Below are positions 17,790 through 40,702 of a DNA stretch of 64,000 nucleotides, piece after piece. The DNA is from a virus. The translations under genes were made by a program, and so were the position numbers. Where the stretch lies: IMG/VR virus record IMGVR_UViG_3300006790_000001, positions 1-64,000 of that record; one strand, 5' to 3'. Position 1 is the stretch's first letter. Every line of letters begins with the position of its first letter. The notes under the pieces were generated by a model. That model saw only the letters and a list, made by a program, of their open reading frames with translations. It made no database searches and was not told the origin of the DNA.

Positions 17790-18092
17790 ATGAAGCTCAA
17801 CGACGTGTTGTTGGCGATCGGGATTAGTCACACGCAGCTTTATCGGATCCGGCACGCTAAGCGGTTGCCATCGTTCGGTGCGTTCGCTCGGTTGTGTGAG
17901 GTGTTGGAGATGGACAGCGCCGATGTTGTCGATCTCATGGTGGGGCTGATGTATCAGGACATGGAGCTGGTCGATGCTGTTCTGCGTAAATACATTCACA
18001 ACCTGAAGCCATTGAATACTGACGCCTTGAATCGCGGGTGGGAGAAAGAGTCCGGGAAGAATCGAGTGCAGAGGTGGGTCAATGTTGACTGA
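17790..18092 (+). CDS. helix-turn-helix DNA-binding protein
   Basis: 100 aa from ATG 17790. LNDVLLAIGISHTQLYRIRHAKRLPSFGAFARL reads as an XRE-like HTH. First gene of the rightward replication operon. Confidence 0.55.
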   Translation: MKLNDVLLAIGISHTQLYRIRHAKRLPSFGAFARLCEVLEMDSADVVDLMVGLMYQDMELVDAVLRKYIHNLKPLNTDALNRGWEKESGKNRVQRWVNVD

Positions 18093-22264: not shown

Positions 22265-22717
22265 TTGCCAGTACTACCCAAGCAACTCCGCACACCATCG
22301 AAGATCGATGAGGCACGCGACGGCAACACAGACTATGCCCCCATCCCCGAGGGGAACTATGTGGTCGAGCTGGTCAACATCAGTCAGCGCACCTCAGCGG
22401 CCGGTAACGAGCGGCTCAACTTCGAACTGAAGGTGGTGGAAGACACCAACGGCGACGACGAATACAACAATCGGCGGGTGTTCTACGGCTCCAATATCAA
22501 CGAGCAGGGCGCACCGTGGCTGATCCGCGGTTTCGATGCGTTCGGCATCCCCCATGACGCCGACATCGACGACATGGAGGACTACTACGGCACCGAGGCT
22601 AAGGCCCGAGTCGCGATCACCGAATACAAGGGCGAGGAACGCAACGACGTCCGATCGCTCACCCCGATGAGCGTTGCGGCCGCTACGGCTGACGACGACG
22701 ACGACTGGGATGCCTGA
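22265..22717 (+). CDS. DUF669-like single-strand DNA-binding protein candidate
   Basis: 150 aa with a TTG start. Has an OB-like core and an acidic tail (ATADDDDDWDA) typical of SSB C-termini. Assignment is by synteny with the ATPase. Confidence 0.5.
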   Translation: MPVLPKQLRTPSKIDEARDGNTDYAPIPEGNYVVELVNISQRTSAAGNERLNFELKVVEDTNGDDEYNNRRVFYGSNINEQGAPWLIRGFDAFGIPHDADIDDMEDYYGTEAKARVAITEYKGEERNDVRSLTPMSVAAATADDDDDWDA

Positions 22718-23091
22718 TGCCGCTCGCACGATCCTTTCGAGTCGACCCGAACGAACTAGCTGCTCTCGTCGAACAGCTAGAAGCTGCTGTCGAAGTCGTG
22801 GGCAGCAGGACCCGAGACATCCATGATGTCCTCCCCGAAACCGTCGCCAACGTCGGGATCACCCTCGTCAGCCTTTCTAGGGTGACAGGCATCAAGTCGG
22901 GTCGGATCGCTGACATCGTCAACGGCAAGCAAACAGCCACCCCCGACGAGGCGGTCCGGCTGGCTCATTGGATGCGGGACTCGTTCACCGACAGCGGCGA
23001 ACCGATCCCCTTCTCTGCCGATCGGAAACCGAAACCGGCCAAGCGGAAGCTTGAACCGGTCCGGGATCTCGACGAGGAGGAGTGGGAGTAG
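22717..23091 (+). CDS. putative DNA-binding protein (HTH)
   Basis: 124 aa. LVSLSRVTGIKSGRIADIVNGKQTATPDEAVRLAHWM is HTH-like. Confidence 0.45.
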   Translation: MPLARSFRVDPNELAALVEQLEAAVEVVGSRTRDIHDVLPETVANVGITLVSLSRVTGIKSGRIADIVNGKQTATPDEAVRLAHWMRDSFTDSGEPIPFSADRKPKPAKRKLEPVRDLDEEEWE

Positions 23092-23444: not shown

Positions 23445-23447
23445 TCG

Positions 23448-27211: not shown

Positions 27212-27615
27212 ACCCCACCACACCCACAACCCTCACCACACTCACCACACTCGGCCTAGCCACATGGCGACTCACCCAACTATGGCAACAAGACACCATC
27301 ACACAACCACTACGAAACAAACTCACACACTGGCTACAACACACACAACCCGACGGCACCCCACACTGGATCACACACAACCCCGACGGCACAACACAGA
27401 TCGACCCACAAAAACAAAGACCCACACAACTACAAGACCTCGCAAACTGGGCACAAGAACTACACACCTGCACACGCTGCCTCTCAGTCTGGATAGCCGC
27501 CACACTCACACTCGCACAACACAAACGACCCCACCCCACACAACTACTCACAACAGCACTCGCAGCAGCCGCAATAAACAACCTCCTAGAAACCACCCCA
27601 CCCCCCACAAACTGA
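27208..27615 (+). CDS. DUF1360-like membrane protein
   Basis: LATWRLTQLWQQDTITQPLR ... CTRCLSVWIAATL resembles the DUF1360 pattern (a.yRlt.L...D.It.P.R ... C.wC.svW.a) from memory. Lies in the A+C-rich block. Confidence 0.45.
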   Translation: MNPTTPTTLTTLTTLGLATWRLTQLWQQDTITQPLRNKLTHWLQHTQPDGTPHWITHNPDGTTQIDPQKQRPTQLQDLANWAQELHTCTRCLSVWIAATLTLAQHKRPHPTQLLTTALAAAAINNLLETTPPPTN

Positions 27616-27645
27616 CCCCACAGGAACACACACAACACAGTGCGC

Positions 27646-27664
27646 TCGGGCGCTTTGCGCCCGG
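27646..27664 (+). terminator. hairpin at the end of the A+C-rich operon
   Basis: GGGCGC-TTT-GCGCCC, extendable by one C-G pair and one U-G pair. Followed by a G/T-rich tract rather than a clean T-run. Confidence 0.3.
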
Positions 27665-27665
27665 C

Positions 27666-27743
27666 TGGGGTGTTGTGGTTTGTCGCGGGTTGGTGCGGGT
27701 TGGGGCGGGCGAGTCTTTGCGGGGCGGCTAGGGAGGGGCGGGG
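27666..27743 (+). repeat. G-tract cluster (nine runs of G3-G4 within 78 nt)
   Basis: GGGG or GGG at 27667, 27687, 27697, 27702, 27707, 27721, 27731, 27735 and 27740. In 27661-27720 I counted 1 A and 10 C out of 60 nt. Confidence 0.8.
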
Positions 27744-27765
27744 CGGCGCAGTCTTGCGAGGCGCT

Positions 27766-27845
27766 GAATTCTTCGCGGCTCGCCGGACCCCCGCCGGGCT
27801 CGAGAATTCTGCGGCGCGACTCGGAAATTCTTGCGGCGCTCGACC
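27766..27845 (+). repeat. three iteron-like direct repeats, consensus (G/A)AATTCT(T)GCGGCGC
   Basis: GAATTCTTCGCGGCTCGCC (27766-27784), GAATTCTGCGGCGCGACTC (27804-27822), and AAATTCTTGCGGCGCTCGACC (27825-27845). Confidence 0.6.
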
Positions 27846-27930
27846 CCCCGGCTGCGCGTGCGCCCTTTCGTGGAGCCACCGCCGAAACCCCGGACAGGGT
27901 GTTCTCGGTATTTAGGGTGTTTCCCTCCGT

Positions 27931-27959
27931 TTGACGTTGCACCGGCCGGGTGCTAGGAT
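27931..27959 (+). promoter_or_regulatory. sigma-70/SigA-type promoter driving a leaderless transcript
   Basis: TTGACG (27931-27936), 17-nt spacer, TAGGAT (27954-27959), then 6 nt to ATG 27966. The spacer contains the dyad GCACC-GGCCG-GGTG. Confidence 0.6.
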
Positions 27960-27965
27960 CGGGCC

Positions 27966-28127
27966 ATGAGTAACGACACTTCAGACTCCCTCGTCGCGGT
28001 TTCCCCTACGACCGGCAGGACGTTTGCTGAGACCGAGGCCGAGCTGCGGCGGGTTTTCAAGATTGCCGTCGATTCGCTGGACCCGGGTTCGAGCGTGGCG
28101 GAGCGAACTCACCCGTGGTGGCGCTGA
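27966..28127 (+). CDS. small leaderless ORF (53 aa)
   Basis: Hand translation: MSNDTSDSLVAVSPTTGRTFAETEAELRRVFKIAVDSLDPGSSVAERTHPWWR. It starts 6 nt after the -10 and ends 2 nt before a T9 run. Confidence 0.35.
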   Translation: MSNDTSDSLVAVSPTTGRTFAETEAELRRVFKIAVDSLDPGSSVAERTHPWWR

Positions 28128-28129
28128 GA

Positions 28130-28138
28130 TTTTTTTTT
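28130..28138 (+). terminator. T9 run (possible intrinsic terminator tail)
   Basis: Nine consecutive T in a high-GC genome. The upstream stem (CTCA..TGAG plus a few pairs) is weak. Confidence 0.35.
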
Positions 28139-28153
28139 CGGGGTGTCGCCGCT

Positions 28154-28179
28154 GGAATACATTGCACCGCTCTGGTGTT
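28154..28179 (+). promoter_or_regulatory. ECF (SigR/SigH-type)-like promoter P1
   Basis: GGAATACATTGCACCGCTCTGGTGTT is an exact GGAAT-N18-GTT. It is intergenic and followed by a GGAGAGG Shine-Dalgarno sequence and ATG 28229. Confidence 0.55.
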
Positions 28180-28228
28180 GGCTTAGTTGCAGCGTTCGGA
28201 AGTGCCGGGCGGTGCGGAGAGGTTCCCT

Positions 28229-28534
28229 ATGTCTGTTCCCTGTTCCAGCGTCGGCTGCAGCGGCGACGCTGAGTTCGACGTCTACACCCACGCCAACTAC
28301 GGCTCCGGCCCCACCGCCGGGGCTTACTGTGTTGGCTGCATTCCCCTGTTCCTCAACGACAACTGGAACTCGCACCCGGCGTACCGGGTGATCGCTTTCG
28401 ACCACACCAATTTCTGGATCAGCCACGGCCTCCTCGCCGTCGGCTCGACCTATGTGGTCGACCCTGTCACGGTCCCCGGTGCCCACGGCCCCGGCGTCGC
28501 CCTCCCCCACAAGATTCACGAGGTGAACGCCTGA
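28229..28534 (+). CDS. hypothetical Cys-containing protein (101 aa)
   Basis: ATG 28229 is preceded by GGAGAGG. Same frame as track ORF 28187... Confidence 0.5.
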   Translation: MSVPCSSVGCSGDAEFDVYTHANYGSGPTAGAYCVGCIPLFLNDNWNSHPAYRVIAFDHTNFWISHGLLAVGSTYVVDPVTVPGAHGPGVALPHKIHEVNA

Positions 28535-28818
28535 TGACCCGCATCCCCGCCAAGGACCTGAAGCCGGGCGACTTGGTCCGTGTCCACTCGATGGAGTGCA
28601 AGGTCCTCGCCGCCGAGCCCGCTTTCGACGGCCGGGTCCGGCTCACCATGGAGTGCGTCGCCGAGTGGGGCGGCGACCCGAGCGACATCGGCTGGGTCTA
28701 CACCTACTCGATCGGCCCGAACGTCATGTACATGCCGGGCGACGGCACGACCGGTTCGATCCCCACTGTCGGCGAGGCGCTCGCCGATCTGCTCGACAAC
28801 AAGGAAGGTTCCCGATGA
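28534..28818 (+). CDS. hypothetical protein (94 aa)
   Basis: Coupled ORF. The C-terminal DNKEGSR is encoded by the 29-nt junction repeat. Confidence 0.5.
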   Translation: MTRIPAKDLKPGDLVRVHSMECKVLAAEPAFDGRVRLTMECVAEWGGDPSDIGWVYTYSIGPNVMYMPGDGTTGSIPTVGEALADLLDNKEGSR

Positions 28819-28821
28819 GCA
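28793..28821 (+). repeat. 29-nt exact junction repeat, copy 1
   Basis: TCGACAACAAGGAAGGTTCCCGATGAGCA is identical to 29029-29057. It spans the C-terminal codons, a Shine-Dalgarno sequence (AAGGAAGG) and the ATGA start/stop overlap. Confidence 0.9.
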
Positions 28822-29054
28822 TTACTTTCACTTCACTGGGCGGCACCCGCCCCCTCTACCTCGTCGAAGCCGACGGCGAGACGGTCGGGATCGTCGGCAA
28901 GACCGAGACGGCCACCCGGTCCTACTGGTACGCCCTCGATGCGGACCACAAGAGGATCGACCATCCCCGGTTCGACGCCGACGGCTACGAGATCGACCGC
29001 ACCCGTAAGCGGGTGACGAAAGCTCTGATCGACAACAAGGAAGGTTCCCGATGA
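28815..29054 (+). CDS. hypothetical protein (79 aa)
   Basis: ATG 28815 lies within an ATGA overlap. The protein also ends DNKEGSR. Confidence 0.5.
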   Translation: MSITFTSLGGTRPLYLVEADGETVGIVGKTETATRSYWYALDADHKRIDHPRFDADGYEIDRTRKRVTKALIDNKEGSR

Positions 29055-29057
29055 GCA
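29029..29057 (+). repeat. 29-nt exact junction repeat, copy 2
   Basis: Identical to 28793-28821. Confidence 0.9.
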
Positions 29058-29659
29058 CCCCCACCACCTATGTCCCTGGCGATGAGGTCGTCACCCCCGA
29101 CGGCCGTGTCGTAACCGTCGTTCGGGTCCATCCCGACTTTCACACCCTGACCCCGGCGACCGCCCACCATGTCTGGGTGATCGATGCCCCGGACCGTTCG
29201 ACGCCGGAGCACTACGACCCGGACGACCTGCGGCCGGACCTCCCGCTGCTCGACTCCGAGCTGGATGCCCGTGAGGGCTGGCGGAACCACGTCTTCGCCG
29301 CTTCCGACGACTGGGTCCGCAACGAGGTTCGGGGCGGCGTCACTCGGATGCGCCCGTGGTGGAAGGTCGAACTTGCCCTGGCCGAGTTGAACCGCCGGGG
29401 CCTCTCGGCGGAAGAGGTCGTCGCTGCGAAGGGTCTGCGCCGGGGCGACAAGATCACCGGCTTCCCCGACGCCACGCTCTCCCCGCCCCTCCCGTTGTTC
29501 GTCCACGAGGTCGACGCCGAGGCCGAGACGCTGAGCGACGGTGTGTTCCGGTCCGCCATCGTCGTCACTGTCGATTCGTTCGACCCCGGCGAGGGGTGGC
29601 ACGGTGACCGGTCGACCATCTCCCTCCCGCCCGACGTGAAGGTGGAGGTGGAGCGATGA
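29051..29659 (+). CDS. hypothetical protein (202 aa)
   Basis: Track ORF, coupled at both ends. Confidence 0.55.
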   Translation: MSTPTTYVPGDEVVTPDGRVVTVVRVHPDFHTLTPATAHHVWVIDAPDRSTPEHYDPDDLRPDLPLLDSELDAREGWRNHVFAASDDWVRNEVRGGVTRMRPWWKVELALAELNRRGLSAEEVVAAKGLRRGDKITGFPDATLSPPLPLFVHEVDAEAETLSDGVFRSAIVVTVDSFDPGEGWHGDRSTISLPPDVKVEVER

Positions 29660-29922
29660 TCGATCCGATCGATTTTCACAACCCGTCGACTCGTCCGCTC
29701 CGGCGGATCGAGGTCACGGTCCGCAACGATGACCGGCTCAACGCCGAGGCGTACCGGCTGCGGGAGTACTTGTACTCGAACTTCTCGGTCTTCTCCGTGG
29801 AGGAGACTGACTCTGCTTGGGCGACGATCGTCGTGACGGGCCGGGACAGGGCCGGGTTCACGGCCGAGGCGGTCGCTGCTCGGCTCGGGTCCGGCAGTTT
29901 CGGTGCGAAGGTGGTGGCCTGA
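29656..29922 (+). CDS. hypothetical protein (88 aa)
   Basis: Track ORF, coupled at both ends. Confidence 0.5.
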   Translation: MIDPIDFHNPSTRPLRRIEVTVRNDDRLNAEAYRLREYLYSNFSVFSVEETDSAWATIVVTGRDRAGFTAEAVAARLGSGSFGAKVVA

Positions 29923-30227
29923 TGGCGAGCGAACCGAAGACCAGTGGTGACGAGATCGGCGAGGCTCTCGATCGAGCCCCGTCCGACACCGAGGTCATCG
30001 TGATGACCGGCAGCCCACACGGCCACTGGGCCGTCGGCTCGACCGAAGAGGAAGCACTCGAAACGCTACATCGGGTCTGCGGCTGCACCGACCCCGAGGA
30101 GAAGGCCATCGGCCGGTTCTCCGAGCCGGTTTCCGTGGTGGTCGACATTCTCGGTCGCCCGTGGTGGAAGCCCGGCACTGCGACCCTCGAATGGGACGAC
30201 ACTGACGAACTGGAAGGGAGACTGTGA
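29922..30227 (+). CDS. hypothetical protein (101 aa)
   Basis: ATG 29922 shares a base with the upstream TGA. Same frame as track ORF 29817... Confidence 0.5.
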   Translation: MASEPKTSGDEIGEALDRAPSDTEVIVMTGSPHGHWAVGSTEEEALETLHRVCGCTDPEEKAIGRFSEPVSVVVDILGRPWWKPGTATLEWDDTDELEGRL

Positions 30228-30300
30228 CGGCGCACGATTGGGTCGATGTGGCCGTCGCTGCCCTGGCTCTTGGATTGATTTTTTGGTGGGGTTTCCCACG

Positions 30301-30326
30301 GGAATAGATCGCACCGGTCCGGTGTT
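30301..30326 (+). promoter_or_regulatory. ECF (SigR/SigH-type)-like promoter P2
   Basis: GGAATAGATCGCACCGGTCCGGTGTT matches GGAAT-N18-GTT, with a perfect 13-bp palindrome CACCGG-T-CCGGTG in the spacer. A T6 run lies upstream at 30279-30284. Confidence 0.55.
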
Positions 30327-30362
30327 GACCCGAGTGGCCACCTACCGAAAGGACACCCCGCA

Positions 30363-30707
30363 ATGAACACCTACCGAATCCTTCGAGACACCGGCAAGGG
30401 CGACGAAGTCCACGCCGAAGGATGCCGAGACATCGCCCGGACCGCCGCCCGCTACGGCGAAACCGGCTGGACGTTCACCGCCGAGCCCGGCGCCGACCTG
30501 GCCTACGAAGCGGCTCGCGACACGTACGAGGACCACATCAGCGACTACGGCTACGAGTACGACTCGCCCGAGGCCGTCCACTACTGGCGAGAGTGCGCCC
30601 ACGGGTTCAAAGTCCACAACTGCGCCCACAAGCTGAACACCGTGCCCGAGATGCCCGACTTCAGCGACGACGACGAGGTCGACTTCACACGAGAGGTGGT
30701 CCGATGA
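30363..30707 (+). CDS. hypothetical protein (114 aa)
   Basis: Track ORF with a GAAAGGA Shine-Dalgarno sequence upstream. Confidence 0.55.
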   Translation: MNTYRILRDTGKGDEVHAEGCRDIARTAARYGETGWTFTAEPGADLAYEAARDTYEDHISDYGYEYDSPEAVHYWRECAHGFKVHNCAHKLNTVPEMPDFSDDDEVDFTREVVR

Positions 30708-30952
30708 CCATGATGAAGTGCGGCCACGCCGCCAACGCCACCGAAGCCGGTAAGCCGGTCTGCGTTGTCTGCTACGGGATCGTCCCCGGCGCTGACGAGA
30801 TCGACACCGACGCCCCCGACCTGACCGGTCGAGAGTCGAAGTGTGGGTACTGCCGGAACGTCGAGCCGTCGTCCCCCCGCCTTGCGTACTTCCGCCACGC
30901 ACCCGATCGGCCTCGCGACTCGCATTACTGCGGGTGCCGGGGCTGGAACTGA
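30704..30952 (+). CDS. hypothetical Cys-rich (zinc-ribbon-like) protein (82 aa)
   Basis: ATG 30704 lies within an ATGA overlap. The Cys pairs CVVC ... CGYC ... CGC suggest metal binding. Confidence 0.5.
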   Translation: MTMMKCGHAANATEAGKPVCVVCYGIVPGADEIDTDAPDLTGRESKCGYCRNVEPSSPRLAYFRHAPDRPRDSHYCGCRGWN

Positions 30953-30987
30953 TCAACCCAACCCAACCCAACCCACGGAGGTTCCAC

Positions 30988-31737
30988 ATGACAGAGAAGA
31001 CCAAGCTCGCCGACAAGATCCGAGCCCTGTTCGCCAAGGCCCGGCACGAGCTGACCGGCGAAGCCGAGGCCCGAGCGTTCGAAGCGAAGGCCAACGACCT
31101 GATGGCCAAGCACATGATCGAGATGGCCGAGATCACGGGCCGGGTCGACGGCCACGAGTTCGTCGGCAGGCTCTACTACCACGGGCCGACCGGCCCCCGA
31201 GGCGTGCGGCTGTCGGCCCTGATGGGTTCGATCGCTCGACCGCACGGCGTTCACCACATGGTGACGTCGATGACCTGGGGGTTCAAGGTCCCGGCCAGCT
31301 GGAATCTGGTCGAGTCCGGCGAGGTCGTCAAGAAGGGCCGGTACTCGCTGCTGTATGGCCGAGCTGAGATCGTCGAGGGCGTGATCGCCTTGTTTGAGCG
31401 GCTCAGTATCGACGCCTTGGCTGGTGCCAGCGACGTGAAGGGCTACGATGCTGCTGACACGAAGCGGATGCGGAACAACTTCTTGGACAGCTACGGCGAT
31501 GCGGTCGAGGGTCGGCTTATGAAGTTGAATCGGGCTCGGGACGAGGAGACCGAGGGCCGGTTCTTGCCGGTGCTCCGCTCTGATCGGGAGCGGGCTGCAG
31601 AGATCGCCCCGAACGGGAGCCGGGGCTCTGGCTACAGCAGCTGGGGCGGCGGTCACGCTGAGGGGGCTGCGGCTGGTGGCCGGGCGAACTTGGCGGGTCG
31701 TTCGATGCCGAACGCTAGGAGGGCGCTCAATGCCTGA
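30988..31737 (+). CDS. DUF2786-like protein
   Basis: N-terminus KIRALFAKARHELTGEAEARAFEAKANDLMAKHMIE matches the DUF2786 helical hairpin pattern from memory. ATG 30988 is preceded by the conserved CAACC/GGAGG junction. Confidence 0.5.
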   Translation: MTEKTKLADKIRALFAKARHELTGEAEARAFEAKANDLMAKHMIEMAEITGRVDGHEFVGRLYYHGPTGPRGVRLSALMGSIARPHGVHHMVTSMTWGFKVPASWNLVESGEVVKKGRYSLLYGRAEIVEGVIALFERLSIDALAGASDVKGYDAADTKRMRNNFLDSYGDAVEGRLMKLNRARDEETEGRFLPVLRSDRERAAEIAPNGSRGSGYSSWGGGHAEGAAAGGRANLAGRSMPNARRALNA

Positions 31738-32107
31738 TCCGAAGCGACGGGCTTTCACGGCTCCGGTCAGGGAGCCGATGAGCGACGAGCAGTACCTGCG
31801 GTGCGCTCTTGGCATGTTCGATGTCATCCAGTGGCACGATGGCACTACCGAGGTGGCCGACCTCGACCTACGACGTGAGGCCATCCTCGGCCTGGCCGAC
31901 CGGTTCGGGCACAGCCCGATCTGGTTCTTCATCGTCCTGCGGTACTGCTTTGAGTTCAACGAGATGACGCCTGCAGAGGCCGAGCCCGTGGTCGCCGCCG
32001 CGATCAAACGGTTCGACCCGAACCATTCGGCCAACCCCGCCGACTGGCTCGGCGAGCACTACGGCGGGGGCGCGGGCGCACCCGGCGAGCAGTGGGAGTC
32101 GTTCTGA
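31730..32107 (+). CDS. hypothetical protein (125 aa)
   Basis: ATG 31730 overlaps the upstream gene by 8 nt. Same frame as track ORF 31676... Confidence 0.5.
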   Translation: MPDPKRRAFTAPVREPMSDEQYLRCALGMFDVIQWHDGTTEVADLDLRREAILGLADRFGHSPIWFFIVLRYCFEFNEMTPAEAEPVVAAAIKRFDPNHSANPADWLGEHYGGGAGAPGEQWESF

Positions 32108-32113
32108 TGACCG

Positions 32114-32139
32114 GGAATACTTCGCACCGGGGAGGTGTT
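32114..32139 (+). promoter_or_regulatory. ECF (SigR/SigH-type)-like promoter P3 (near-leaderless)
   Basis: GGAATACTTCGCACCGGGGAGGTGTT matches GGAAT-N18-GTT. TTG 32147 and ATG 32150 follow 7-10 nt after GTT with no Shine-Dalgarno sequence. Confidence 0.55.
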
Positions 32140-32149
32140 GACTTAGTTG

Positions 32150-32542
32150 ATGACTTACGACTTCGACTTCCGCAGCTTCGACACCGACACTGACGCTCGC
32201 GAGGGCGTCATCGCCTACTGGGACGCAGTCATCGCCGACACCCACGAGGCGCTCCGCCTTGTGATCGACAACGCTCTCGCCGCTGGCAAGCGTGGCGACG
32301 ACCCCACCGTTGCCCCCACTCTGGCCATGTTCCGGGCGATGCTCGCCGAGGCTGAGGACAACCGCCACACCAGCAACGTCATGCGCTTCAGCACTCGCAA
32401 GATGCTCGCCACCAAGGCTGCTGAGAAGGCTGCCATCGCCGCCAAGGACGACGACAGCTGCCCCTTCTGCATCAACGGCTACATCCGTGAGTTCGCCCAT
32501 GTCGCCAACGGCATCTGCTTCCGCTGCGATGGCCGCGGCTGA
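32150..32542 (+). CDS. hypothetical protein with a C-terminal Cys4 motif (130 aa)
   Basis: The protein ends with the motif CPFCINGY......CFRCDGRG. The start is ATG 32150; the track lists TTG 32147. Confidence 0.5.
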   Translation: MTYDFDFRSFDTDTDAREGVIAYWDAVIADTHEALRLVIDNALAAGKRGDDPTVAPTLAMFRAMLAEAEDNRHTSNVMRFSTRKMLATKAAEKAAIAAKDDDSCPFCINGYIREFAHVANGICFRCDGRG

Positions 32543-32573
32543 TCCAACCACCAACCACAGAAAGAGGTTCCAC

Positions 32574-32774
32574 ATGACCAAGCGCCGGACCTACGTCCGC
32601 AAGCATGAAGGCTACGGCCTGACCGCCGACGGCGAACTCTGGAAGATGGGACGACACGGCTACCTCGCCGGTTACGTCTCGCACCCGGACAACATCGCCA
32701 CGGCCGTCGACAACCACGAAGAAGAGATGCGAATCCTGCGGGCAGATGCCATGCGGGAGTTCGGACTGAGCTGA
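32574..32774 (+). CDS. hypothetical protein (66 aa)
   Basis: ATG 32574 is preceded by the conserved CAACC/AGAGG junction. Same frame as track ORF 32292... Confidence 0.45.
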   Translation: MTKRRTYVRKHEGYGLTADGELWKMGRHGYLAGYVSHPDNIATAVDNHEEEMRILRADAMREFGLS

Positions 32775-32800
32775 CCAACCCAACCACCTGGAGGTTTCCA

Positions 32801-33007
32801 ATGACCCTGACCGTTTCCCCCGCCTACGGCCGTGACTACAAGTCCCGGGACGCAGTCCTTGAGGACTGGCACGACAACAAGGACTTCATTGTCGAGTCCT
32901 TCGGCCCGCACATGGGCCGCTACATCAACAAGGCCGACGCTGAGGCCAACCTCGTTGGCCCGGTCGAGATCCGCTACGCCAAGCTCACCAAGGCGGTGAT
33001 CGTCTGA
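32801..33007 (+). CDS. hypothetical protein (68 aa)
   Basis: Track ORF preceded by the conserved CAACC/GGAGG junction. Confidence 0.5.
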   Translation: MTLTVSPAYGRDYKSRDAVLEDWHDNKDFIVESFGPHMGRYINKADAEANLVGPVEIRYAKLTKAVIV

Positions 33008-33222
33008 TGAAGACCACGCGAAGCTACGTGCAGCCGTGCAGCTACACCGAGGCCGTTGAGCACTGCACCGAGATGTGCCGGAACAGCCCGGAGGTTGTCG
33101 GCGGCACCTACTTGATCGCCTTCCCCCAGGAGGACGGCAGCACCATTGTGCGGGAGATCATGCTGCGGTACAACGACGACCTCGACCTCGTGCGGCCCGA
33201 CTACTACGACCGCTTGGATTGA
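33007..33222 (+). CDS. hypothetical protein (71 aa)
   Basis: Track ORF. The upstream stop abuts its start (TGATG). Confidence 0.5.
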   Translation: MKTTRSYVQPCSYTEAVEHCTEMCRNSPEVVGGTYLIAFPQEDGSTIVREIMLRYNDDLDLVRPDYYDRLD

Positions 33223-33321
33223 TGATCAAGTAGTCGATCGTGGGGGCGGGGAGTTCGTGGAACCTCCTCCCCGCTCCCACCCCCAACCAGCTAGCACCAT
33301 CCCGGTGTATACTCGATTGAA

Positions 33322-33621
33322 ATGAAACTTGGAGACACAATGATTCTTGAACTAAACGACACCGACGGATACAACGGCTGGACCAACCGAGACACCTGGC
33401 TCGTCAACCTGTGGCTCGACAACGACTACGGCAGCTACGCCGCAAAGCTCGACCGCATCGCTGCCGAGACCAGCCCGATCGACGCAGCTGCAGCTCGCCG
33501 CATCTTCGACGATCTCGGGGCGTCTGACATCATCGGCGACGAGTTCTCGATCGAGAACGTCAACTTCGACGAGATCGCAGTCTCGTGGGAAGATGACCGC
33601 CTAGAAGGGCGATCGCTGTAG
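33322..33621 (+). CDS. hypothetical protein (99 aa; alternative start 33340)
   Basis: Track ORF. Last gene of cassette 3, followed by nested hairpins and a terminator. Confidence 0.5.
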   Translation: MKLGDTMILELNDTDGYNGWTNRDTWLVNLWLDNDYGSYAAKLDRIAAETSPIDAAAARRIFDDLGASDIIGDEFSIENVNFDEIAVSWEDDRLEGRSL

Positions 33622-33697
33622 CCTGACCTAGCGCCTCTCGGGATGTGCCCATAGGGCACCGGCCCATAGGGCGAGGGGCGCTGCCCTGGTGGGGCTG

Positions 33698-33745
33698 GCC
33701 CCTGCCGACGACCCGGACCCGTCGGCGGGGGCCAATTTCTTTTTT
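33698..33745 (+). terminator. strong intrinsic terminator
   Basis: A 13-bp stem: GCCCCTGCCGACG (33698-33710) pairs with CGTCGGCGGGGGC (33720-33732), with one G-U pair. The loop is 9 nt. The stem is followed by CAATTTCTTTTTT. Confidence 0.75.
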
Positions 33746-33755
33746 CCCCACCCCC

Positions 33756-33781
33756 GGAATAGATCGCACCAAGCCGATGTT
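33756..33781 (+). promoter_or_regulatory. ECF (SigR/SigH-type)-like promoter P4 (near-leaderless)
   Basis: GGAATAGATCGCACCAAGCCGATGTT matches GGAAT-N18-GTT. GTG 33787 and ATG 33793 follow 5-11 nt after GTT with no Shine-Dalgarno sequence. Confidence 0.55.
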
Positions 33782-33792
33782 GACCCGTGTGT

Positions 33793-35151
33793 ATGACTCC
33801 CTTCGCCGCCACCACCACCACCGTCGAGGTCACCGACCTCCCCAAGATTCGCAAGCGTTTCGAGAAGCTCGCCGCCAAGGCGGGCTCTCTTGACGTTGCG
33901 GCCCCGGTCCTGGAGGTCAGCGCCCCTCGCGAGATCGACGTCAACGGTTGGGCCGTCGAGGTCGCCGACGTCACTGTCGTGATCCCTGAGACGGTCGTGA
34001 TCCCCGGCGGCTGGCGACTGGTCGCCGCCATCGACGTGACCGAGGCGGGCAACGTGATCCGCAGCTTCCGGCCCGAGGTCCCGGCGTCGCTCCACTACGT
34101 GGCGGGCACCCGCTGCGACCACTGCCACCGCTCGATCAAGCGGAAGTTCCTGGTCGCCCTTGAGTCCGCGGTCGGCGAGCTTGTCGTCATCGGCAAGACC
34201 TGCTCGGCCGAGTTCATCGGCCTCGACCTCGACGCCCTGCTCGCCTGGTACGGCTTCGGCTGGGCCATCGAGCCCTTCACCCCCGACGAGGAGGGTTTCG
34301 ACGGCAGCGGTGGCGGGGGCAAGGTCTGGACCGCTCGGTTCGTGGACGCCGCCGCCGAGGCGATCAACTACTTCGGCTACAGCAAGGCCAGCAACTGGGA
34401 CACGTCGACCAAGTCCGACGCTCTCGCCGCTTACCGGCCGAGCCGCCACTGGATGGAGGCCATCGAGGGCCTGGAGATGAAGGGCTCGATCTCGGGCGCT
34501 GAGGCTCTGGCCTGGGCCAAGGCGATCGAGCCCCGCAACGATTTCGAGTCGAACCTGCGGGTGGTCGCCCACAGCTCGACCCTCGACCCCCGCTGGTACG
34601 GCATCGCCGCCTTCATCCCCGAGGGCTACCGCCGTCACATCGAGGCCGAAGCGGTTCGGATCGAGAAGGCCAAGAACGAGGCCCCCAAGGTTCGGGTCCC
34701 TGACTTCGACGGTCGGGCCACGATCGAGGGTGTCGTGATCTCCACCAAGACGGTCGAGAACGACTTCGGCATCAGCTACAAGATGCTGGTCGAGGTCGCC
34801 GCCGAGGGTGGCGCTTTCCGCCTCTTCGGCACCGAGCCCCGAGGTCTCGACGTTGAGGCCGGTGACCGGGTCCGGTTCACCGCTCGGGTCGAGCGCTCGG
34901 ATCGGGACGAGACCTTCGGCTTCTTCTCCCGCCCGACCAAGGCTGTTAACCTGACCGCCGAGGCGCTGCTCGCTGACCGCATCGCCAAGGGCATGCCGGA
35001 GATGGCCTGCGGTCACACCGCCGACTCGCTCAGCCGGGACGAGAGCGGCCCCAACGGCATCGCCGTTTACTGCTCCCGCTGCCTCTGCTACGTCGGTGCT
35101 CCCACTGTCGAAGAGAGGGCGGCCCGGGCACGCTTGCTGGAGAACGCATGA
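33793..35151 (+). CDS. hypothetical protein (452 aa) with a Cys/His cluster and an OB-fold-like C-terminal region
   Basis: Largest ORF in the early block. It contains the motif HCDHCHRSIKRK....GKTCSAEF. The start could be GTG 33787 or ATG 33793. Confidence 0.55.
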   Translation: MTPFAATTTTVEVTDLPKIRKRFEKLAAKAGSLDVAAPVLEVSAPREIDVNGWAVEVADVTVVIPETVVIPGGWRLVAAIDVTEAGNVIRSFRPEVPASLHYVAGTRCDHCHRSIKRKFLVALESAVGELVVIGKTCSAEFIGLDLDALLAWYGFGWAIEPFTPDEEGFDGSGGGGKVWTARFVDAAAEAINYFGYSKASNWDTSTKSDALAAYRPSRHWMEAIEGLEMKGSISGAEALAWAKAIEPRNDFESNLRVVAHSSTLDPRWYGIAAFIPEGYRRHIEAEAVRIEKAKNEAPKVRVPDFDGRATIEGVVISTKTVENDFGISYKMLVEVAAEGGAFRLFGTEPRGLDVEAGDRVRFTARVERSDRDETFGFFSRPTKAVNLTAEALLADRIAKGMPEMACGHTADSLSRDESGPNGIAVYCSRCLCYVGAPTVEERAARARLLENA

Positions 35152-35183
35152 ATCGGAACAACCCAACAAGAGAGGAACCACAC

Positions 35184-35486: not shown

Positions 35487-35848
35487 GCGTTCTCGCTGTT
35501 CTTCATCCGAGCGGCGAGTGGTCGCTCCCCGAGGTCCCCGACGGTCCGGTCAGTCTCGCCACGACGCAAGAACTGGTCGGCGGGCTGGTCGAGGTCGTCG
35601 GCACGATCCTTGAACATGCCCTGCCCGAAGGGGTCGAGATGCTCATGAATGAGGAAGGGTTATTGATCGGCCTAGAGGAGAACGTGTTCGTTCCCGAGTG
35701 GACCGGGCACACCAACTTCGGCGCAGGTTTCCGAGGCCCGCTAGCGTTCGTTCGCTTCGACCTGGAGACCGGCAATCACTTGCCGCTGACCGAGGGCGAC
35801 GTCGAGTTTCTGCGCCGCCGAGAGATCGAGCTGGCGGCGCTCCGTTAG
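35483..35848 (+). CDS. DUF3846-like protein
   Basis: 121 aa. The pattern ..LATTQELVGGLVEVV.....MLMNEEGLLIGLEEN.. resembles DUF3846 from memory. ATG 35483 lies within an ATGA overlap. Confidence 0.45.
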   Translation: MSVLAVLHPSGEWSLPEVPDGPVSLATTQELVGGLVEVVGTILEHALPEGVEMLMNEEGLLIGLEENVFVPEWTGHTNFGAGFRGPLAFVRFDLETGNHLPLTEGDVEFLRRREIELAALR

Positions 35849-36324
35849 TTGGAGCTGACGTCAATCGAGGTGGCCCGAAGGGCAGCCTTCTCCGCAAGCC
35901 GCTCCAGAATCGCAATCTGATTCTGGGCGGCTTCTTGCGGTTCTTGCGTGATCTGAAGAGCGTGGACCGTCGTCGGATCTCCGAGGACAGACAGCATCGA
36001 GTCGTTCGCAAGCTTCGCAGCCCGCATCAGCCGCTCGATGTCTTCCGCCGTGTAATCGGCGACCTGCCCGGCCAAGCAAGCGAGGATCCGATCCTGGATC
36101 GCTTCGATCGTGTCGGCGTAGCCTGCAGCGATTCCGGCTTTGCGGCCGACAACTTGGCGGAAGCCGACCATCGCGTTGACGGCGTTGACTTCGTGCATCC
36201 GATCGATATCGCCGGTCCGACTCATCAGAGCCGTTAGCGCCAGCTCTTTGCCGCGCGAAAGTCCTTTCGGGATCTCTCCCGTTTCCACGGCTTTCGCAGC
36301 AAGAATCTCTAGCTCGTCGCTCAT
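35845..36324 (-). CDS. hypothetical helical protein (159 aa), minus strand
   Basis: Track ORF. Its stop (TAA, complement of 35845-35847) overlaps the TAG (35846-35848) of the convergent + gene. Coupled to the upstream minus-strand ORF. Confidence 0.5.
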   Translation of the reverse strand: MSDELEILAAKAVETGEIPKGLSRGKELALTALMSRTGDIDRMHEVNAVNAMVGFRQVVGRKAGIAAGYADTIEAIQDRILACLAGQVADYTAEDIERLMRAAKLANDSMLSVLGDPTTVHALQITQEPQEAAQNQIAILERLAEKAALRATSIDVSSN

Positions 36325-39729: not shown

Positions 39730-39754
39730 GGAACATACCGGGCGCTGCGGTGTT
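39730..39754 (+). promoter_or_regulatory. ECF (SigH/SigE-type)-like promoter P5
   Basis: GGAACATACCGGGCGCTGCGGTGTT matches GGAAC-N17-GTT. It lies 31 nt after the TerL stop, upstream of a ~0.9-kb ORF-poor region. Confidence 0.4.
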
Positions 39755-40653
39755 GTACCAAGTGACTGCGGGGGCCCGGCCCCCGGGGCGGCGCTCCGTG
39801 CGCCTCCCGGCCGCCGGTCCGTAGTCCACAAGAAGCCCTTCGGGCCCCGAGCGTCCGCTTCGGCGGGTGCAAGGAGTGAGGCCAGAGGTGCCGGTAGGAG
39901 TCCGGCAGCGAGGGGTGGACATGAGATCGAGGGATCGGGTGAGCGCCGAGTGCGTGAGCCCGACACCACGACCCACGGTGCGCACCAAGGCGATTGAGCC
40001 TGGCGCTCCGTCGACCGCCTAGGGCACCGACCGGCTGACGCCGCGTTCTGACACCGGGGGCACCAAAGAGTCGACGGCTAGAGCGTCAGCAGCCGAGCGG
40101 ACACCAACGGTCAGGTGTGATCGGCAGACTCGCCGCTCACCCGATTCCTCGACAGAGATCGATCCCCGGCGATCCGGGGATCGAGGATCGACCGCTCATC
40201 GAGCAACCCGCTGTCGTGATAGCGGCGGGCCAGCCGTAAGCGTCGAAGGAGATCCCATTCGGGCCACTGGCAACTGGTAAGACCAAGCAGCGCCGACGAC
40301 GCAATCCGAGCACTGCTTCATCACGGGTGAGCGGTCGATCCATCGATCTCAGGAGGTAGTGCCCTGCTCCCCGCTCCGGGCTCGGAGAACCGAGCGCCGT
40401 AGAAGCCGGACAGGGTCGGGGCCCAAGAGGCCACCGCCAAACCGAGGGTGCCAATCCCACCACCTCCATTGATCGGCGTTGCAGGGCGTGGCTGCCCTGA
40501 TGGCTGAGGTGAAAGGTCAGCACGGGTCCGGCCGACCCAGGAAGGCGAAAGCCGACGCAAGTTGAAGTTCGCCCGAACCTCTCAGCCCCCGCTTGAAAGG
40601 GGGAGTCCCAGGGCCCAAACAGGGACTCGCATCGGGCTTGATCAAGACAAGAA
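39755..40653 (+). ncRNA. candidate large structured noncoding RNA (class unknown)
   Basis: No credible ORF on either strand; all six-frame ORFs here are Arg/Gly/Pro/Ser-rich and overlap each other. Stable hairpins are dense, including UUCG- and GAAA-type loops. The region is bounded by promoter P5 and a 12-bp terminator hairpin. Confidence 0.35.
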
Positions 40654-40685
40654 GAGACCCGCTCCCCGGGAAAGGAGCGGGTCTC
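40654..40685. terminator. bidirectional intrinsic terminator hairpin
   Basis: GAGACCCGCTCC (40654-40665) pairs perfectly with GGAGCGGGTCTC (40674-40685). The hairpin is flanked by A-rich sequence upstream and TTT downstream. It can serve the + strand region and the minus-strand gene 40739..41257. Confidence 0.6.
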
Positions 40686-40702
40686 TTTGGCATGTTGGTA
40701 GG

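What the first reader, a model, noticed from the sequence alone, without database searches (positions are those of the whole stretch)
28154..33781. Four (five with 39730) intergenic promoters matching the SigR/SigH ECF-sigma consensus GGAAT-N18-GTT
The aligned sites are as follows. P1 at 28154: GGAATACATTGCACCGCTCTGGTGTTGGC. P2 at 30301: GGAATAGATCGCACCGGTCCGGTGTTGAC. P3 at 32114: GGAATACTTCGCACCGGGGAGGTGTTGAC. P4 at 33756: GGAATAGATCGCACCAAGCCGATGTTGAC. P5 at 39730: GGAACATACCGGGCGCTGCGGTGTTGTAC (N17). All lie in gaps between gene cassettes. P1, P2 and P4 are preceded by a T-run or terminator. P3 and P4 sit 5-10 nt from a start codon lacking a Shine-Dalgarno sequence. GGAAT-N18-GTT is the published consensus for Streptomyces SigR, and gGGAAYA-N16-19-YGTT is the consensus for mycobacterial and corynebacterial SigH/SigE regulons. 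The whole block of ~25 small genes would then be wired either to a host thiol-oxidative/heat-stress ECF sigma factor or to a phage-encoded mimic not present in this window. Either would be an unusual transcription strategy for a phage.
Basis: partly seen in the sequence, partly recalled or inferred. Interest (0 to 1): 0.75.

Follow-up and report, generated by a model that had tools for sequence, protein, structure and literature searches.

The report
Stress-sigma-type promoters in phage early region
A previously undescribed high-GC phage carries four near-identical promoter elements in front of its early gene cassettes that match the consensus read by the actinobacterial stress sigma factors SigH/SigR rather than the housekeeping sigma, and each also contains a phage-specific operator, which suggests (without experimental proof) an unusual way of wiring early phage transcription.

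Summary
**Observation:** confirmed. Four elements (28154, 30301, 32114, 33756) are intergenic and co-oriented. They share about 41 nt, not just GGAAT-N18-GTT.

**Two layers in each element:**
- A bipartite core, (C.)GGAATA-N17-(T)GTTGAC. It has 4 matches against 0.01 expected. It matches both the core and extended sigmaH/sigmaR consensus (gGGAAta / t/cGTTgaa).
- A spacer palindrome, GCACC-N5-GGTG. The same palindrome sits in two ordinary sigmaA-type promoters in the same region, so it is a separate operator.

**Support for promoter function:**
- The predicted +1 falls on SD-less ATGs at P3 and P4.
- In a close relative (L032), the hexamers and half-sites are kept while the spacer centre changes.
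- An unrelated soil contig (L016) has two copies of the core, one without the palindrome.
- More distant relatives (L012, L014) carry sigmaA-type promoters with different operators instead, at comparable positions in L012. The ECF-type core is therefore probably a lineage-specific swap.

**Limits:**
- No sigma or RNA polymerase domain was found in 85 ORFs, but divergent phage sigmas cannot be excluded.
- The host is unknown, with hints pointing to Actinomycetota.
- P5 is a weaker variant upstream of a structured non-coding stretch of about 0.9 kb.

**Verdict:** real ECF-type promoters with an operator. Recognition by host SigH/SigR is plausible but unproven.

The parts
27931..27959 (+). P_A1: sigmaA-type promoter TTGACG-17-TAGGAT. 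Its spacer holds the perfect palindrome GCACC-GGCCG-GGTGC (27939-27953). The ATG at 27966 lies 7 nt after the -10, so the gene is leaderless.
27966..28127 (+). First early gene (53 aa, leaderless, no family hit), followed by a T9 run at 28131-28139.
28154..28182 (+). P1: GGAATA-N17-GTTGGC with spacer operator GCACC-GCTCT-GGTG. It fronts six genes (28229-30227) via a leader of about 40 nt with an SD (GGAGAGG).
30301..30329 (+). P2: GGAATA-N17-GTTGAC with operator GCACC-GGTCC-GGTG. It fronts four genes (30363-32107), including the DUF2786 gene.
32114..32142 (+). P3: GGAATA-N17-GTTGAC with operator GCACC-GGGGA-GGTG. The predicted +1 is about 32149 and an SD-less ATG is at 32150. It fronts five genes (32150-33222). 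Its 3' end is the mosaic breakpoint against the relative L032.
33240..33280 (+). Hairpin ending the P3 unit (14-bp GC-rich stem, z -2.86).
33294..33313 (+). P_A2: operator GCACC-ATCCC-GGTG directly abutting a sigmaA-type -10 (TATACT, 33308-33313). It fronts a single DUF7249 gene (33340-33621). In L032 it is conserved as GCACCAACCTGATG-TAGACT.
33696..33745 (+). Strong intrinsic terminator (15-bp stem plus T-tract, z -4.85) ending the P_A2 unit, just upstream of P4. It is conserved in L032.
33756..33784 (+). P4: GGAATA-N17-GTTGAC with a degenerate operator GCACC-AAGCC-GATG (GGTG in L032). The predicted +1 is about 33791 and an SD-less ATG is at 33793. It fronts the 452-aa gene and two more genes (to 35848).
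39730..39757 (+). P5: weaker variant GGAACA-N16-GTTGTA without the palindrome, 31 nt after the terminase stop. It is conserved in L032. L012 has a sigmaA-type promoter at the same place.
39760..40690 (+). Gene-free, GC-rich (67%) stretch downstream of P5. It shows no codon-position signal and folds very stably (z -5.3). It ends at the hairpin at 40652-40687. This is a candidate structured RNA driven by P5.
35845..36324 (-). Conserved minus-strand gene (159 aa) with an N-terminal helix-turn-helix visible in the alignment. It evolves fast (32-40% identity to the L012 and L013 orthologs in the alignment, against 77% for the terminase of L012). It is a candidate operator-binding regulator, by inference only.
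17790..18092 (+). Cro/C1-type HTH protein in the replication module (HTH_26 in the L031 ortholog). It is an alternative candidate for the operator-binding protein.
22717..23091 (+). Second HTH-containing protein in the replication module (weak PHROG hit to an antitoxin with an HTH domain). It is an alternative candidate regulator.

Best explanation
P1-P4 are the promoters of the phage's early gene cassettes. Each is a composite of two independent modules.

Module 1 is an ECF-sigma-type bipartite core: -35 (C.)GGAATA, a 17-nt spacer, and -10 (T)GTTGAC. Placing GTT at -12 to -10 puts +1 about 10 nt downstream. That gives leaderless mRNAs at P3 and P4 and short leaders with an SD at P1 and P2. 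The core is identical in form to promoters read by the actinobacterial thiol-oxidative/heat-stress sigma factors SigH/SigR. The most likely reader is host RNA polymerase carrying such a host ECF sigma, because no sigma factor or RNA polymerase is recognisable in the phage.

Module 2 is a palindromic operator, GCACC-N5-GGTG, in the spacer and abutting the -10. The same operator sits in the spacers of the two sigmaA-type promoters of the region (P_A1 and P_A2). A single phage-encoded dimeric DNA-binding protein could therefore regulate all early promoters of both classes together, most likely shutting them off.

Shown here: the existence of the elements, their statistics, their placement, the geometry relative to start codons, the conservation pattern, the separability of the two modules, and the match to the consensus.

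Inferred: that transcription starts there, which sigma reads the core, and which protein binds the operator and with what effect.
For: Statistics and placement:
- Core GGAAYA-N17-GTTGRC: 4 matches against 0.01 expected.
- Full element: 4 against 0.00 expected.
- All sites are intergenic in a genome with 5.2% non-coding DNA, on the + strand, at cassette starts, and after a terminator or T-run.

Consensus match:
- Published sigmaH consensus: -35 gGGAAta, -10 t/cGTTgaa.
- Confirmed sigmaH-only promoters mshC and trxB1 read GGAATA-N17-GTT.
- T at -31 marks sigmaH-only promoters, whereas sigmaE needs GGAAC (PMC10012870).

Geometry:
- With GTT at -12 to -10, +1 is predicted at about 32149 and about 33791. 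SD-less ATGs are at 32150 and 33793.
- The sigmaA-type P_A1 puts the ATG at 27966 exactly 7 nt after TAGGAT.

Constraint pattern:
- Within the window, the central N5 differs in all four copies while the flanking blocks are invariant.
- In the close relative L032, the P3 ortholog keeps GGAAT, CTTCGCACC and GGTGTTGAC but changes 4 of the 5 central bases. The neighbouring coding DNA is 78% identical.
- The L032 P4 ortholog keeps both hexamers, and its changes fall only in the spacer and downstream.

Module independence:
- GCACC-N5-GRTG: 10 matches against 2.0 expected. Six sites lie in early promoter spacers, including the two sigmaA-type promoters.
- Conversely, soil contig L016 has a second copy that the search pattern did not impose, GGAACA-N17-GTTGAC, without the palindrome. 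It sits right after a terminator and before an RBS and ATG.

Comparative context:
- Relatives L012 and L014 carry canonical sigmaA promoters (TTGACA-17-TAnnnT; TACAAT followed by a leaderless ATG). Their spacers hold different palindromes that abut the -10. In L012 two of them sit at positions comparable to P4 and P5.
- These sites are therefore promoter-plus-operator slots in this lineage.

No phage sigma or polymerase: no Sigma70, ECF or RNA polymerase Pfam or PHROG hit in 85 ORFs.

Host hints towards Actinomycetota:
- Microbacterium paulum is the only genome hit of the P4-gene family.
- There are Microbacterium, Arthrobacter and Brevibacterium phage hits.
- A homolog context carries WhiB, and L012 has an Rpf-like domain.
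Against: - No transcript data exist, so every promoter assignment is sequence inference.
- The host is unknown. The sigmaH/sigmaR reading needs an actinobacterial host, and the hints are weak. For example, 130 Klebsiella phages also hit part of the P4 gene.
- Phage sigma factors are often too divergent for Pfam (PMC7826278). About 1.5 kb of the genome is outside the window. Many early ORFs have no annotation. The structure models of the two candidate proteins failed.
- ECF sigmas with GGAAT/GTT-like specificity overlap (sigmaH, sigmaE and sigmaM in Corynebacterium), so the particular sigma cannot be named.
- SigH/SigR is normally held inactive by an anti-sigma factor. It is not clear how a phage could rely on it for early genes.
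- Only three comparative data points exist for the ECF-type copies (two L032 orthologs and L016b). L016a and L019 were found with a pattern that imposed GCACC and TGTTG.
- No other multi-copy carrier was found in IMG/VR, the metagenome collection or GenBank phages.
Confidence: 0.5

Rival explanations
1. The core is read by a phage-encoded factor. This could be a divergent ECF-like sigma, a sigma-appropriation pair or a non-canonical RNA polymerase that the domain searches missed, or one encoded in the roughly 1.5 kb outside the window. The SigH/SigR resemblance would then reflect a shared ECF-type recognition mode, not use of the host stress sigma.
For: - Phage sigmas commonly lack recognisable sigma2/sigma4 Pfam domains (PMC7826278).
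- Most early ORFs and several large ORFs have no family or PDB match.
- The promoter class is lineage-specific. It is present in the window and L032 and absent in L012 and L014. That is what co-evolution with a phage-borne factor would produce.
- Two sigmaA-type promoters (P_A1, P_A2) exist that could express such a factor first.
Against: - No Sigma70_r2, r4, ECF or RNA polymerase hit at E<=0.01 in 85 ORFs. PHROGs gives none either.
- P_A1 expresses only a 53-aa protein before a T-run, and P_A2 only a 93-aa DUF7249 protein. Both are too small for a sigma.
- The motif matches the host-type consensus down to its extended positions.
- L016 shares the promoter type without detectable protein homology to the window. 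It is only 1.7 kb, however.
Confidence: 0.2
2. The repeats are not promoters. They would be binding sites for a phage DNA-binding protein (stoperator-like or roadblock sites, partition sites or packaging sites) or conserved recombination boundary sequences between gene cassettes. GGAAT and GTT would then match the ECF consensus by coincidence.
For: - Half of the conserved positions form a palindrome typical of dimeric regulators.
- The mosaic breakpoint between the window and L032 falls exactly at the 3' end of P3.
- The minimal pattern GGAAT-N18-GTT is not rare by chance.
Against: - The non-palindromic blocks GGAATA and TTGAC are as invariant as the palindrome.
- They persist without the palindrome in L016b and P5.
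- The elements are strictly co-oriented with the genes, follow terminators, and sit at the distance from SD-less ATGs that a promoter predicts.
- More distant relatives carry unmistakable sigmaA promoters instead, at comparable positions in L012.
- The palindrome alone also occurs inside ordinary promoters. That fits an operator, not a stand-alone site.
Confidence: 0.1
3. The elements are SigA-dependent promoters that lack normal hexamers. They would be activated by a phage protein bound to the spacer palindrome (MerR-like or MotA-like appropriation), and GGAATA and GTTGAC would be contacts for the activator rather than for an ECF sigma.
For: - The operator lies in the spacer, where MerR-type activators bind.
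- The same operator occurs in bona fide sigmaA promoters of the region.
- An HTH protein is conserved nearby.
Against: - No TAnnnT -10 hexamer lies anywhere within reach in P1-P4, and sigmaA needs one.
- The hexamer spacing is 17 nt, not the overlong 19-20 nt typical of MerR-type promoters.
- L016b and P5 keep the hexamers but lack the palindrome.
Confidence: 0.08

Closest known systems
SigH (Corynebacterium, Mycobacterium) and SigR (Streptomyces) regulon promoters (ECF12-type sigma with a ZAS anti-sigma factor, RshA/RsrA)
   Same: - -35 GGAAT(A) with T at -31.
- -10 GTT within t/cGTTga.
- 18 nt between GGAAT and GTT, which equals GGAATA-N17-GTT as in mshC and trxB1 (PMC10012870).
- The implied start lies about 10 nt after GTT.
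   Different: - They are located in a phage early region, not in a cellular stress regulon.
- There are four near-identical copies with a conserved spacer palindrome, which cellular SigH/SigR promoters do not share.
- Dependence on the sigma factor is untested, and the host is unknown.
Operator-in-promoter control of phage early genes, for example Streptomyces phage phiC31 early promoters with conserved inverted repeats bound by the repressor, and mycobacteriophage L5 operator/stoperator sites (recalled from memory; not found in the searchable library)
   Same: - Multiple near-identical early promoters, each associated with the same short repeat that a single phage regulator could bind.
- The repeat sequence is lineage-specific: GCACC-N5-GGTG here, TATCG-N3-yGATA in L012 and L014.
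   Different: - No repressor has been identified.
- No integrase or other lysogeny functions were seen in the window, so the regulator more likely acts as a temporal switch than as an immunity repressor.
- The operator serves two different promoter classes.
Phages that bring their own ECF-like or alternative sigma, for example phiEco32 gp36 and Bacillus SPO1 gp28 and gp33/34 (own knowledge; SPO1 is mentioned in PMC13401047, listed)
   Same: A set of non-sigma70-type promoters with a shared bipartite motif in front of a block of phage genes.
   Different: No sigma gene is detectable in this phage. The motif equals a host-type consensus rather than a phage-private one. It governs the early genes, not the middle or late genes.
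The sister phages' own early promoters (L012 and L014: sigmaA-type, TTGACA-17-TAnnnT)
   Same: - The same architecture: -35, then an operator in the spacer abutting the -10, then the -10, often followed by a leaderless ATG. In L012 two of the promoters sit at positions comparable to P4 and P5.
   Different: The hexamers belong to a different sigma class and the operator half-sites differ. The window/L032 branch has exchanged both.

Membership tests
SigH/SigR-type (ECF12-like) promoters | -35 element GGAAT (T at -31; extended gGGAAta) | tested here: met
   GGAATA is invariant in P1-P4. It is preceded by G in P2 and P3. The consensus comes from PMC10012870. P5 and L016b have GGAACA.
SigH/SigR-type (ECF12-like) promoters | -10 element GTT (extended t/cGTTgaa) | tested here: met
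   TGTTGAC in P2-P4 and TGTTGGC in P1. P5 has TGTTGTA.
SigH/SigR-type (ECF12-like) promoters | 17-19 nt between GGAAT and GTT | tested here: met
   Exactly 18 nt in all four copies, and 17 nt in P5.
SigH/SigR-type (ECF12-like) promoters | Transcription starts about 10 nt downstream of GTT | not testable with these tools
   Indirect evidence only. SD-less ATGs at 32150 and 33793 lie 11 and 12 nt after the last T of GTT.
SigH/SigR-type (ECF12-like) promoters | Activity depends on SigH/SigR holoenzyme | not testable with these tools
   This needs in vitro transcription or a sigH/sigR mutant host.
SigH/SigR-type (ECF12-like) promoters | The host is an actinobacterium that encodes SigH/SigR and its anti-sigma factor | tested here: inconclusive
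   The host is unknown. Hints only: a Microbacterium paulum locus, Microbacterium, Arthrobacter and Brevibacterium phage hits, WhiB in a homolog context, and 60% GC with leaderless genes.
SigA (group 1 sigma70) promoters | -10 hexamer TAnnnT about 7 nt upstream of the start | tested here: not met
   No TAnnnT lies at or near the -10 position of P1-P5. By contrast it is met at P_A1 (TAGGAT), P_A2 (TATACT) and in L012 and L014.
Promoters of a phage-encoded sigma factor | The phage genome encodes a sigma factor | tested here: not met
   No Sigma70_r2, r4 or ECF hit in 66 small and 19 large ORFs. PHROGs also gives none. Caveat: divergent phage sigmas escape Pfam, and 1.5 kb of the genome was not seen.
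Single-subunit phage RNA polymerase (T7-like) promoters | The phage encodes such a polymerase, and the promoter is one contiguous conserved block of about 20 nt | tested here: not met
   No RNA polymerase domain was found. The element is bipartite with a freely varying centre, and the hexamers persist without the middle block.
Phage operator/repressor sites | A short inverted repeat recurring at promoters of one regulatory region | tested here: met
   GCACC-N5-GRTG gives 10 matches against 2.0 expected, with six sites in early promoter spacers. The L032 orthologs keep it. L012 and L014 carry analogous but different palindromes.
Phage operator/repressor sites | A cognate DNA-binding protein has been identified | tested here: inconclusive
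   There are three HTH candidates (35845-36324 on the - strand, 17790-18092 and 22717-23091), but nothing links any of them to the site. The structure models were too poor to use.

The most novel reading that the evidence does not exclude
A lytic actinophage lineage has switched most of its early transcription from the housekeeping sigma to the host's thiol-oxidative/heat-stress sigma (SigH/SigR), while its sister phages keep sigmaA-type promoters instead. Early gene expression would then be coupled to host redox or heat stress. Alternatively, the phage could release the sigma from its anti-sigma factor itself. Candidates for that role are the product of the first, sigmaA-driven, leaderless 53-aa gene or one of the many Cys-rich early proteins. 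A single phage regulator acting on a shared spacer operator would then close both promoter classes.
Probability: 0.35. Interest if true: 0.75.

Novelty: new variant of a known kind. Interest (0 to 1): 0.55.

Why it matters
Phage early genes are expected to use the host's housekeeping sigma so that they fire in any cell. An early region built on stress-sigma promoters would mean one of two things. Infection could be gated by host physiology (oxidative or heat stress, when SigH/SigR is free). Or the phage could actively unlock a host ECF sigma, which would be a new host-takeover route and a natural source of anti-anti-sigma proteins.

The comparison with sister phages also shows en-bloc replacement of both promoter class and operator specificity at cassette junctions. 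This gives a concrete case of how phage regulatory circuits are rewired, with promoters acting as mosaic boundaries.

The compact 29-nt element, an ECF core plus an operator, would also be a ready-made orthogonal and repressible promoter part for actinobacterial synthetic biology.

Tried and rejected
**Searches for other carriers**
- Megablast of the region against GenBank phages: no match.
- tblastn of the terminase against GenBank phages: all matches below 60% identity, and below 40% among those listed.
- tblastn of the capsid protein: no match at all.
- IMG/VR scan with the element: 8 single-copy hits at chance level.
- IMG/VR scan for terminase relatives: nothing above 33% identity.
None had convincing extra copies.
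- Metagenome scan: 16 single hits. Only L016, and possibly L019 and L007, look real. The source contig is not in that collection.
- blastn of the element against GenBank phages: chance E. coli phage hits only.
- L016 proteins against GenBank phages: no match.

**Attempts to reach P1 and P2 orthologs in the close relative**
- The contigs of sample SRR26413794 that I could fetch (L031, L032) do not cover them.

**Sigma, polymerase and regulator searches**
- Pfam, PHROGs and PDB sequence searches were negative.
- AlphaFold single-sequence models of the two conserved minus-strand proteins had pLDDT 62 and 44 and are unusable. Foldseek gave no hit at E<=0.001.

**RNA and tRNA checks**
- Rfam on the window and on the post-P5 region: nothing at gathering threshold, and only sub-threshold hits on the terminator.
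- tRNA array hypothesis for the post-terminase region of L012: ARAGORN finds none.

**Corrections and rejected ideas**
- An early tblastn comparison used off-by-one start coordinates. I repeated it correctly.
- I rejected TTGAC as a sigmaA -35 for a downstream -10, because no TAnnnT lies 16-18 nt downstream in any copy.
- I rejected recent segmental duplication as the reason for the similarity, because similarity stops sharply at about 41 nt and the centre is saturated with changes.

Full report
**1. What the window is**

The 64 kb window is almost the whole genome of an uncultured tailed phage. Its terminase is on record on a 65,561-nt JGI contig and in a Logan assembly of SRR11048275. Nearly all genes are on the + strand.
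- 27,966-36,800: about 22 small genes.
- 36,844 onwards, continuing at 1-13,566: HNH, large terminase (38,125), portal, capsid and tail genes.
- 13,767-27,615: a replication and lysis module with exonuclease, helicase, primase-polymerase, amidase and a RuvC-like gene.
- 27,616-27,965: 350 nt of non-coding DNA.

The finding therefore lies in the first 6 kb after the long non-coding region, the position expected for an early region. No cultured phage is close. Megablast found nothing, the listed terminase matches are below 40% identical, and the capsid protein has no tblastn hit.

**2. The observation**

GGAAT-N18-GTT occurs exactly four times, at the stated coordinates, all on the + strand. That minimal pattern is only mildly unusual (1.5 expected). 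The copies share about 41 nt, however (family D2):
- The extended pattern has 0.00 matches expected.
- The bipartite core GGAAYA-N17-GTTGRC has 0.01 expected.
- All copies are fully intergenic in a genome that is 5.2% non-coding.

P5 (39730) is real and intergenic. It reads GGAACA-N16-GTTGTA and does not share the middle block.

The terminator claim holds strictly for P4 only (hairpin plus T-tract, z -4.85). P1 and P2 are preceded by T-runs with weak or non-adjacent hairpins.

**3. Anatomy: two modules**

Aligned, the copies read C.GGAATA..TyGCACC.....GrTGTTGrC.

The blocks TyGCACC and GGTG form an inverted repeat, CACC-N5-GGTG. This repeat is not restricted to the four elements. It fills the spacers of two ordinary sigmaA-type promoters in the same region:
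- P_A1 is TTGACG-TTGCACCGGCCGGGTGC-TAGGAT (27931-27959). The ATG of the first gene (27966) lies exactly 7 nt after the -10, so it is a leaderless gene.
- P_A2 is GCACCATCCCGGTG-TATACT (33294-33313). It fronts a single gene bracketed by two hairpins.

GCACC-N5-GRTG gives 10 matches against 2.0 expected, and six sites lie in these early promoter spacers.

The palindrome is therefore a module of its own, an operator. GGAATA and GTTGAC form the second module.

**4. Evidence that the second module is a promoter core of the ECF type**

(a) Consensus. PMC10012870 gives the following for C. glutamicum sigmaH:
- -35 gGGAAta and -10 t/cGTTgaa.
- A core of GGAAt-N18-19-GTT.
- Experimentally confirmed sigmaH-only promoters mshC and trxB1, which read GGAATA-N17-GTT.
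- T at -31 as the mark of sigmaH-only promoters, whereas sigmaE requires GGAAC.

P1-P4 are (g)GGAATA-N17-tGTTGAc.

(b) Geometry. With T of GGAAT at -31 and 18 nt of spacer, GTT occupies -12 to -10.
- P3: +1 is predicted near 32149, and an ATG without a Shine-Dalgarno sequence is at 32150.
- P4: +1 is predicted near 33791, and an SD-less ATG is at 33793. This is the start used in the JGI gene call (P0123, 452 aa).
- P1 and P2 have leaders of 27-40 nt with GGAGAGG and AAAGGA.

(c) No copy has a TAnnnT hexamer at or near the -10 position, so sigmaA is unlikely to read them.

(d) Constraint pattern within the genome. The five central spacer bases differ in every copy (GCTCT, GGTCC, GGGGA, AAGCC), while the flanking blocks are invariant.

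(e) Constraint between genomes. A close relative from sample SRR26413794 (L032, about 88% DNA identity) has orthologs of P3 and P4.
- P3': GGAATGCTTCGCACCGACCCGGTGTTGAC. It keeps both hexamers and both half-sites but changes 4 of the 5 central bases. The adjacent coding DNA is 78% identical.
- P4': it keeps both hexamers, has three spacer changes (one restores GATG to GGTG) and two changes downstream.
- P5 is kept, with two spacer changes.

(f) Independence from the operator. A 1.7 kb soil contig (L016) has no detectable protein homology to the window. It has one copy with GCACC, which the search pattern imposed. It also has a second copy that the pattern did not impose: GGAACA-ACCCCGGCCTTCTCTGT-GTTGAC. 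That copy lies in and after a terminator hairpin and upstream of an RBS and ATG. This is 2 matches against 0.00 expected.

**5. Comparative context**

A more distant relative, L012 (terminase 77% identical), has no GGAAT/GTT element. It carries three copies of TTGACA-[cTTCCTATCGnnnTGA]-TAnGdT, a canonical sigmaA promoter whose spacer holds a different palindrome, CCTATC-N5-GATAg. The copies lie:
- after the DUF2786 gene;
- upstream of a large early gene;
- immediately after the terminase, which is the same place as P5.

L014 (terminase 63% identical) has two copies of GTATCGGGGCGATAC. The second abuts TACAAT, and the ATG is 7 nt further on, which is again leaderless.

The lineage's general design is therefore -35, then an operator in the spacer abutting the -10, then the -10. 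The operator sequence is lineage-specific. The window/L032 branch differs in both the operator and, at P1-P5, the sigma class of the hexamers.

The window-versus-L032 mosaic breakpoint lies exactly at the 3' end of P3. The window genes at 32150-32774 are absent from L032. The promoter elements therefore also mark cassette boundaries.

**6. Who reads the core**

I scanned 66 small or medium ORFs and 19 large ORFs against Pfam, and 30 against PHROGs. No sigma or RNA polymerase domain appeared. PDB sequence searches of the unassigned proteins were empty.

The sigmaA-type promoters P_A1 and P_A2 express only proteins of 53 aa and 93 aa, too small to be sigma factors. This favours a host sigma.

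The inference is limited in four ways:
- Phage sigmas can lack recognisable domains (PMC7826278).
- 1.5 kb of the genome is outside the window.
- My structure predictions of two conserved unknown proteins failed (pLDDT 62 and 44).
- The host is not known.

Hints point to Actinomycetota:
- Microbacterium paulum is the only GTDB genome hit of the P4-gene family.
- Weak hits go to Microbacterium, Arthrobacter and Brevibacterium phages, although Klebsiella phages also hit one domain.
- A distant homolog context carries WhiB.
- L012 has an Rpf-like domain.
- The genome has 60% GC and frequent leaderless genes.

From established knowledge, GGAAT/C...GTT is the recognition pattern of the related actinobacterial ECF sigmas (SigH/SigR, SigE, SigM). 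The class can therefore be assigned with more confidence than the individual sigma.

**7. The operator**

The half-site architecture, 4-5 bp arms with a 5-nt centre that varies freely, is what a dimeric HTH protein would bind. So is its position between -35 and -10. There it would most likely occlude RNA polymerase and act as a common shut-off for both promoter classes.

Candidates:
- The conserved, fast-evolving minus-strand 159-aa protein, which has an N-terminal HTH (35845-36324; 32-40% identity to its L012 and L013 orthologs in the alignment).
- Two Cro/C1-like HTH proteins in the replication module.

Nothing links any of them to the site. This step is inference.

**8. Literature**

Searches of the held library found no report of a phage early region using SigH/SigR-type promoters. 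The phiC31 early-promoter/CIR system, which I recall as the nearest architectural analogue, is not in the searchable library. I cite it from memory only.

**9. Verdict**

- Use of the host's SigH/SigR is the leading but unproven reading (about 0.35-0.45).
- It is best filed as a new variant of known kinds: ECF promoters, and phage promoter-operator sets.
- I rate the interest as moderate to good. It rests on the apparent rewiring of early transcription to a stress-sigma promoter class and on the promoter-class swap between sister phages.

Noticed in passing
window 39760-40690 (+); counterpart L012 9755-10880: There is about 0.9 kb with no called gene between the terminase and the next genes, downstream of P5 and ending at a strong hairpin (40652-40687). 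GC is 67% and flat at all three codon positions, with stop codons in all six frames. The MFE is -499 kcal/mol against -438 +/- 11 for shuffles (z -5.3). There is no Rfam or tRNA hit. L012 has a gene-free 1.1 kb at the same place behind a sigmaA promoter. It contains several GGTTCGAaTCC T-loop-like strings, but ARAGORN finds no tRNA. Only a 14-nt block (GGAGTGAGGCCAGA) is shared between the two. This is a candidate large structured phage RNA.
   Followed up: partly
window 26392-27683: This cassette has a plus strand made almost entirely of A and C (AT skew +0.3 to +0.4, GC skew -0.2 to -0.26). It encodes a RuvC-like protein, a 75-aa membrane protein and a DUF1360 protein. It is preceded by the best sigmaA-like promoter in the region (TTGACA-16-TAGACT, 26392-26419) and followed by a hairpin with a T-tract (27657-27683). 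It looks like a self-contained insert of foreign composition.
   Followed up: no
window 27616-27930: This is a 330-nt non-coding region just upstream of P_A1. It has G-rich repeats (GGGTTGGTGCGGGTTGGGGCGGGCG) and three direct repeats of about GAAtTCTtGCGGCGC, near 27766, 27804 and 27824. It could be a genome end, an origin or an upstream regulatory region.
   Followed up: no
window 32146/32147 and 33008/33236 versus L032: Gene-content differences between the window and its close relative are clean cassette indels. The window genes at 32150-32774 and 33007-33222 are absent from L032. One breakpoint lies exactly at the 3' end of the P3 element, so the promoter repeats may act as recombination boundaries.
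   Followed up: partly
window 35845-36833 (-): Two of the window's few minus-strand genes (159 and about 161-170 aa) sit here. They are conserved in position just upstream of HNH/terminase in the window, L032, L012 and L013, but at only 32-41% identity in the alignments. The stop codon of the 159-aa gene overlaps that of the convergent + strand gene at 35845-35848. Their function is unknown. The 159-aa protein has an N-terminal HTH and could be a regulator or an unusual small terminase.
   Followed up: partly
window about 55265-55282: A perfect 18-bp palindrome, AGTTCCGTTAACGGAACT, lies about 30 nt upstream of the major capsid gene. It sits within an unusually long (355 nt), relatively AT-rich intergenic region. 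It could be a late regulatory site or an RNA hairpin.
   Followed up: no
window 15589-15668: ARAGORN calls a tRNA-Thr (CGT) inside a 314-aa ORF. The ORF is conserved in L031, where no tRNA is called, so this is probably a false positive.
   Followed up: partly
window 28229-32542, early proteins: Several small early proteins are rich in paired cysteines (CxxC-type motifs), for example those encoded at 28229-28534 and 30704-30952 and the C-terminus of 32150-32542. This is worth noting because the anti-sigma factors of SigH/SigR are zinc/thiol switches, but I found no evidence of a link.
   Followed up: no
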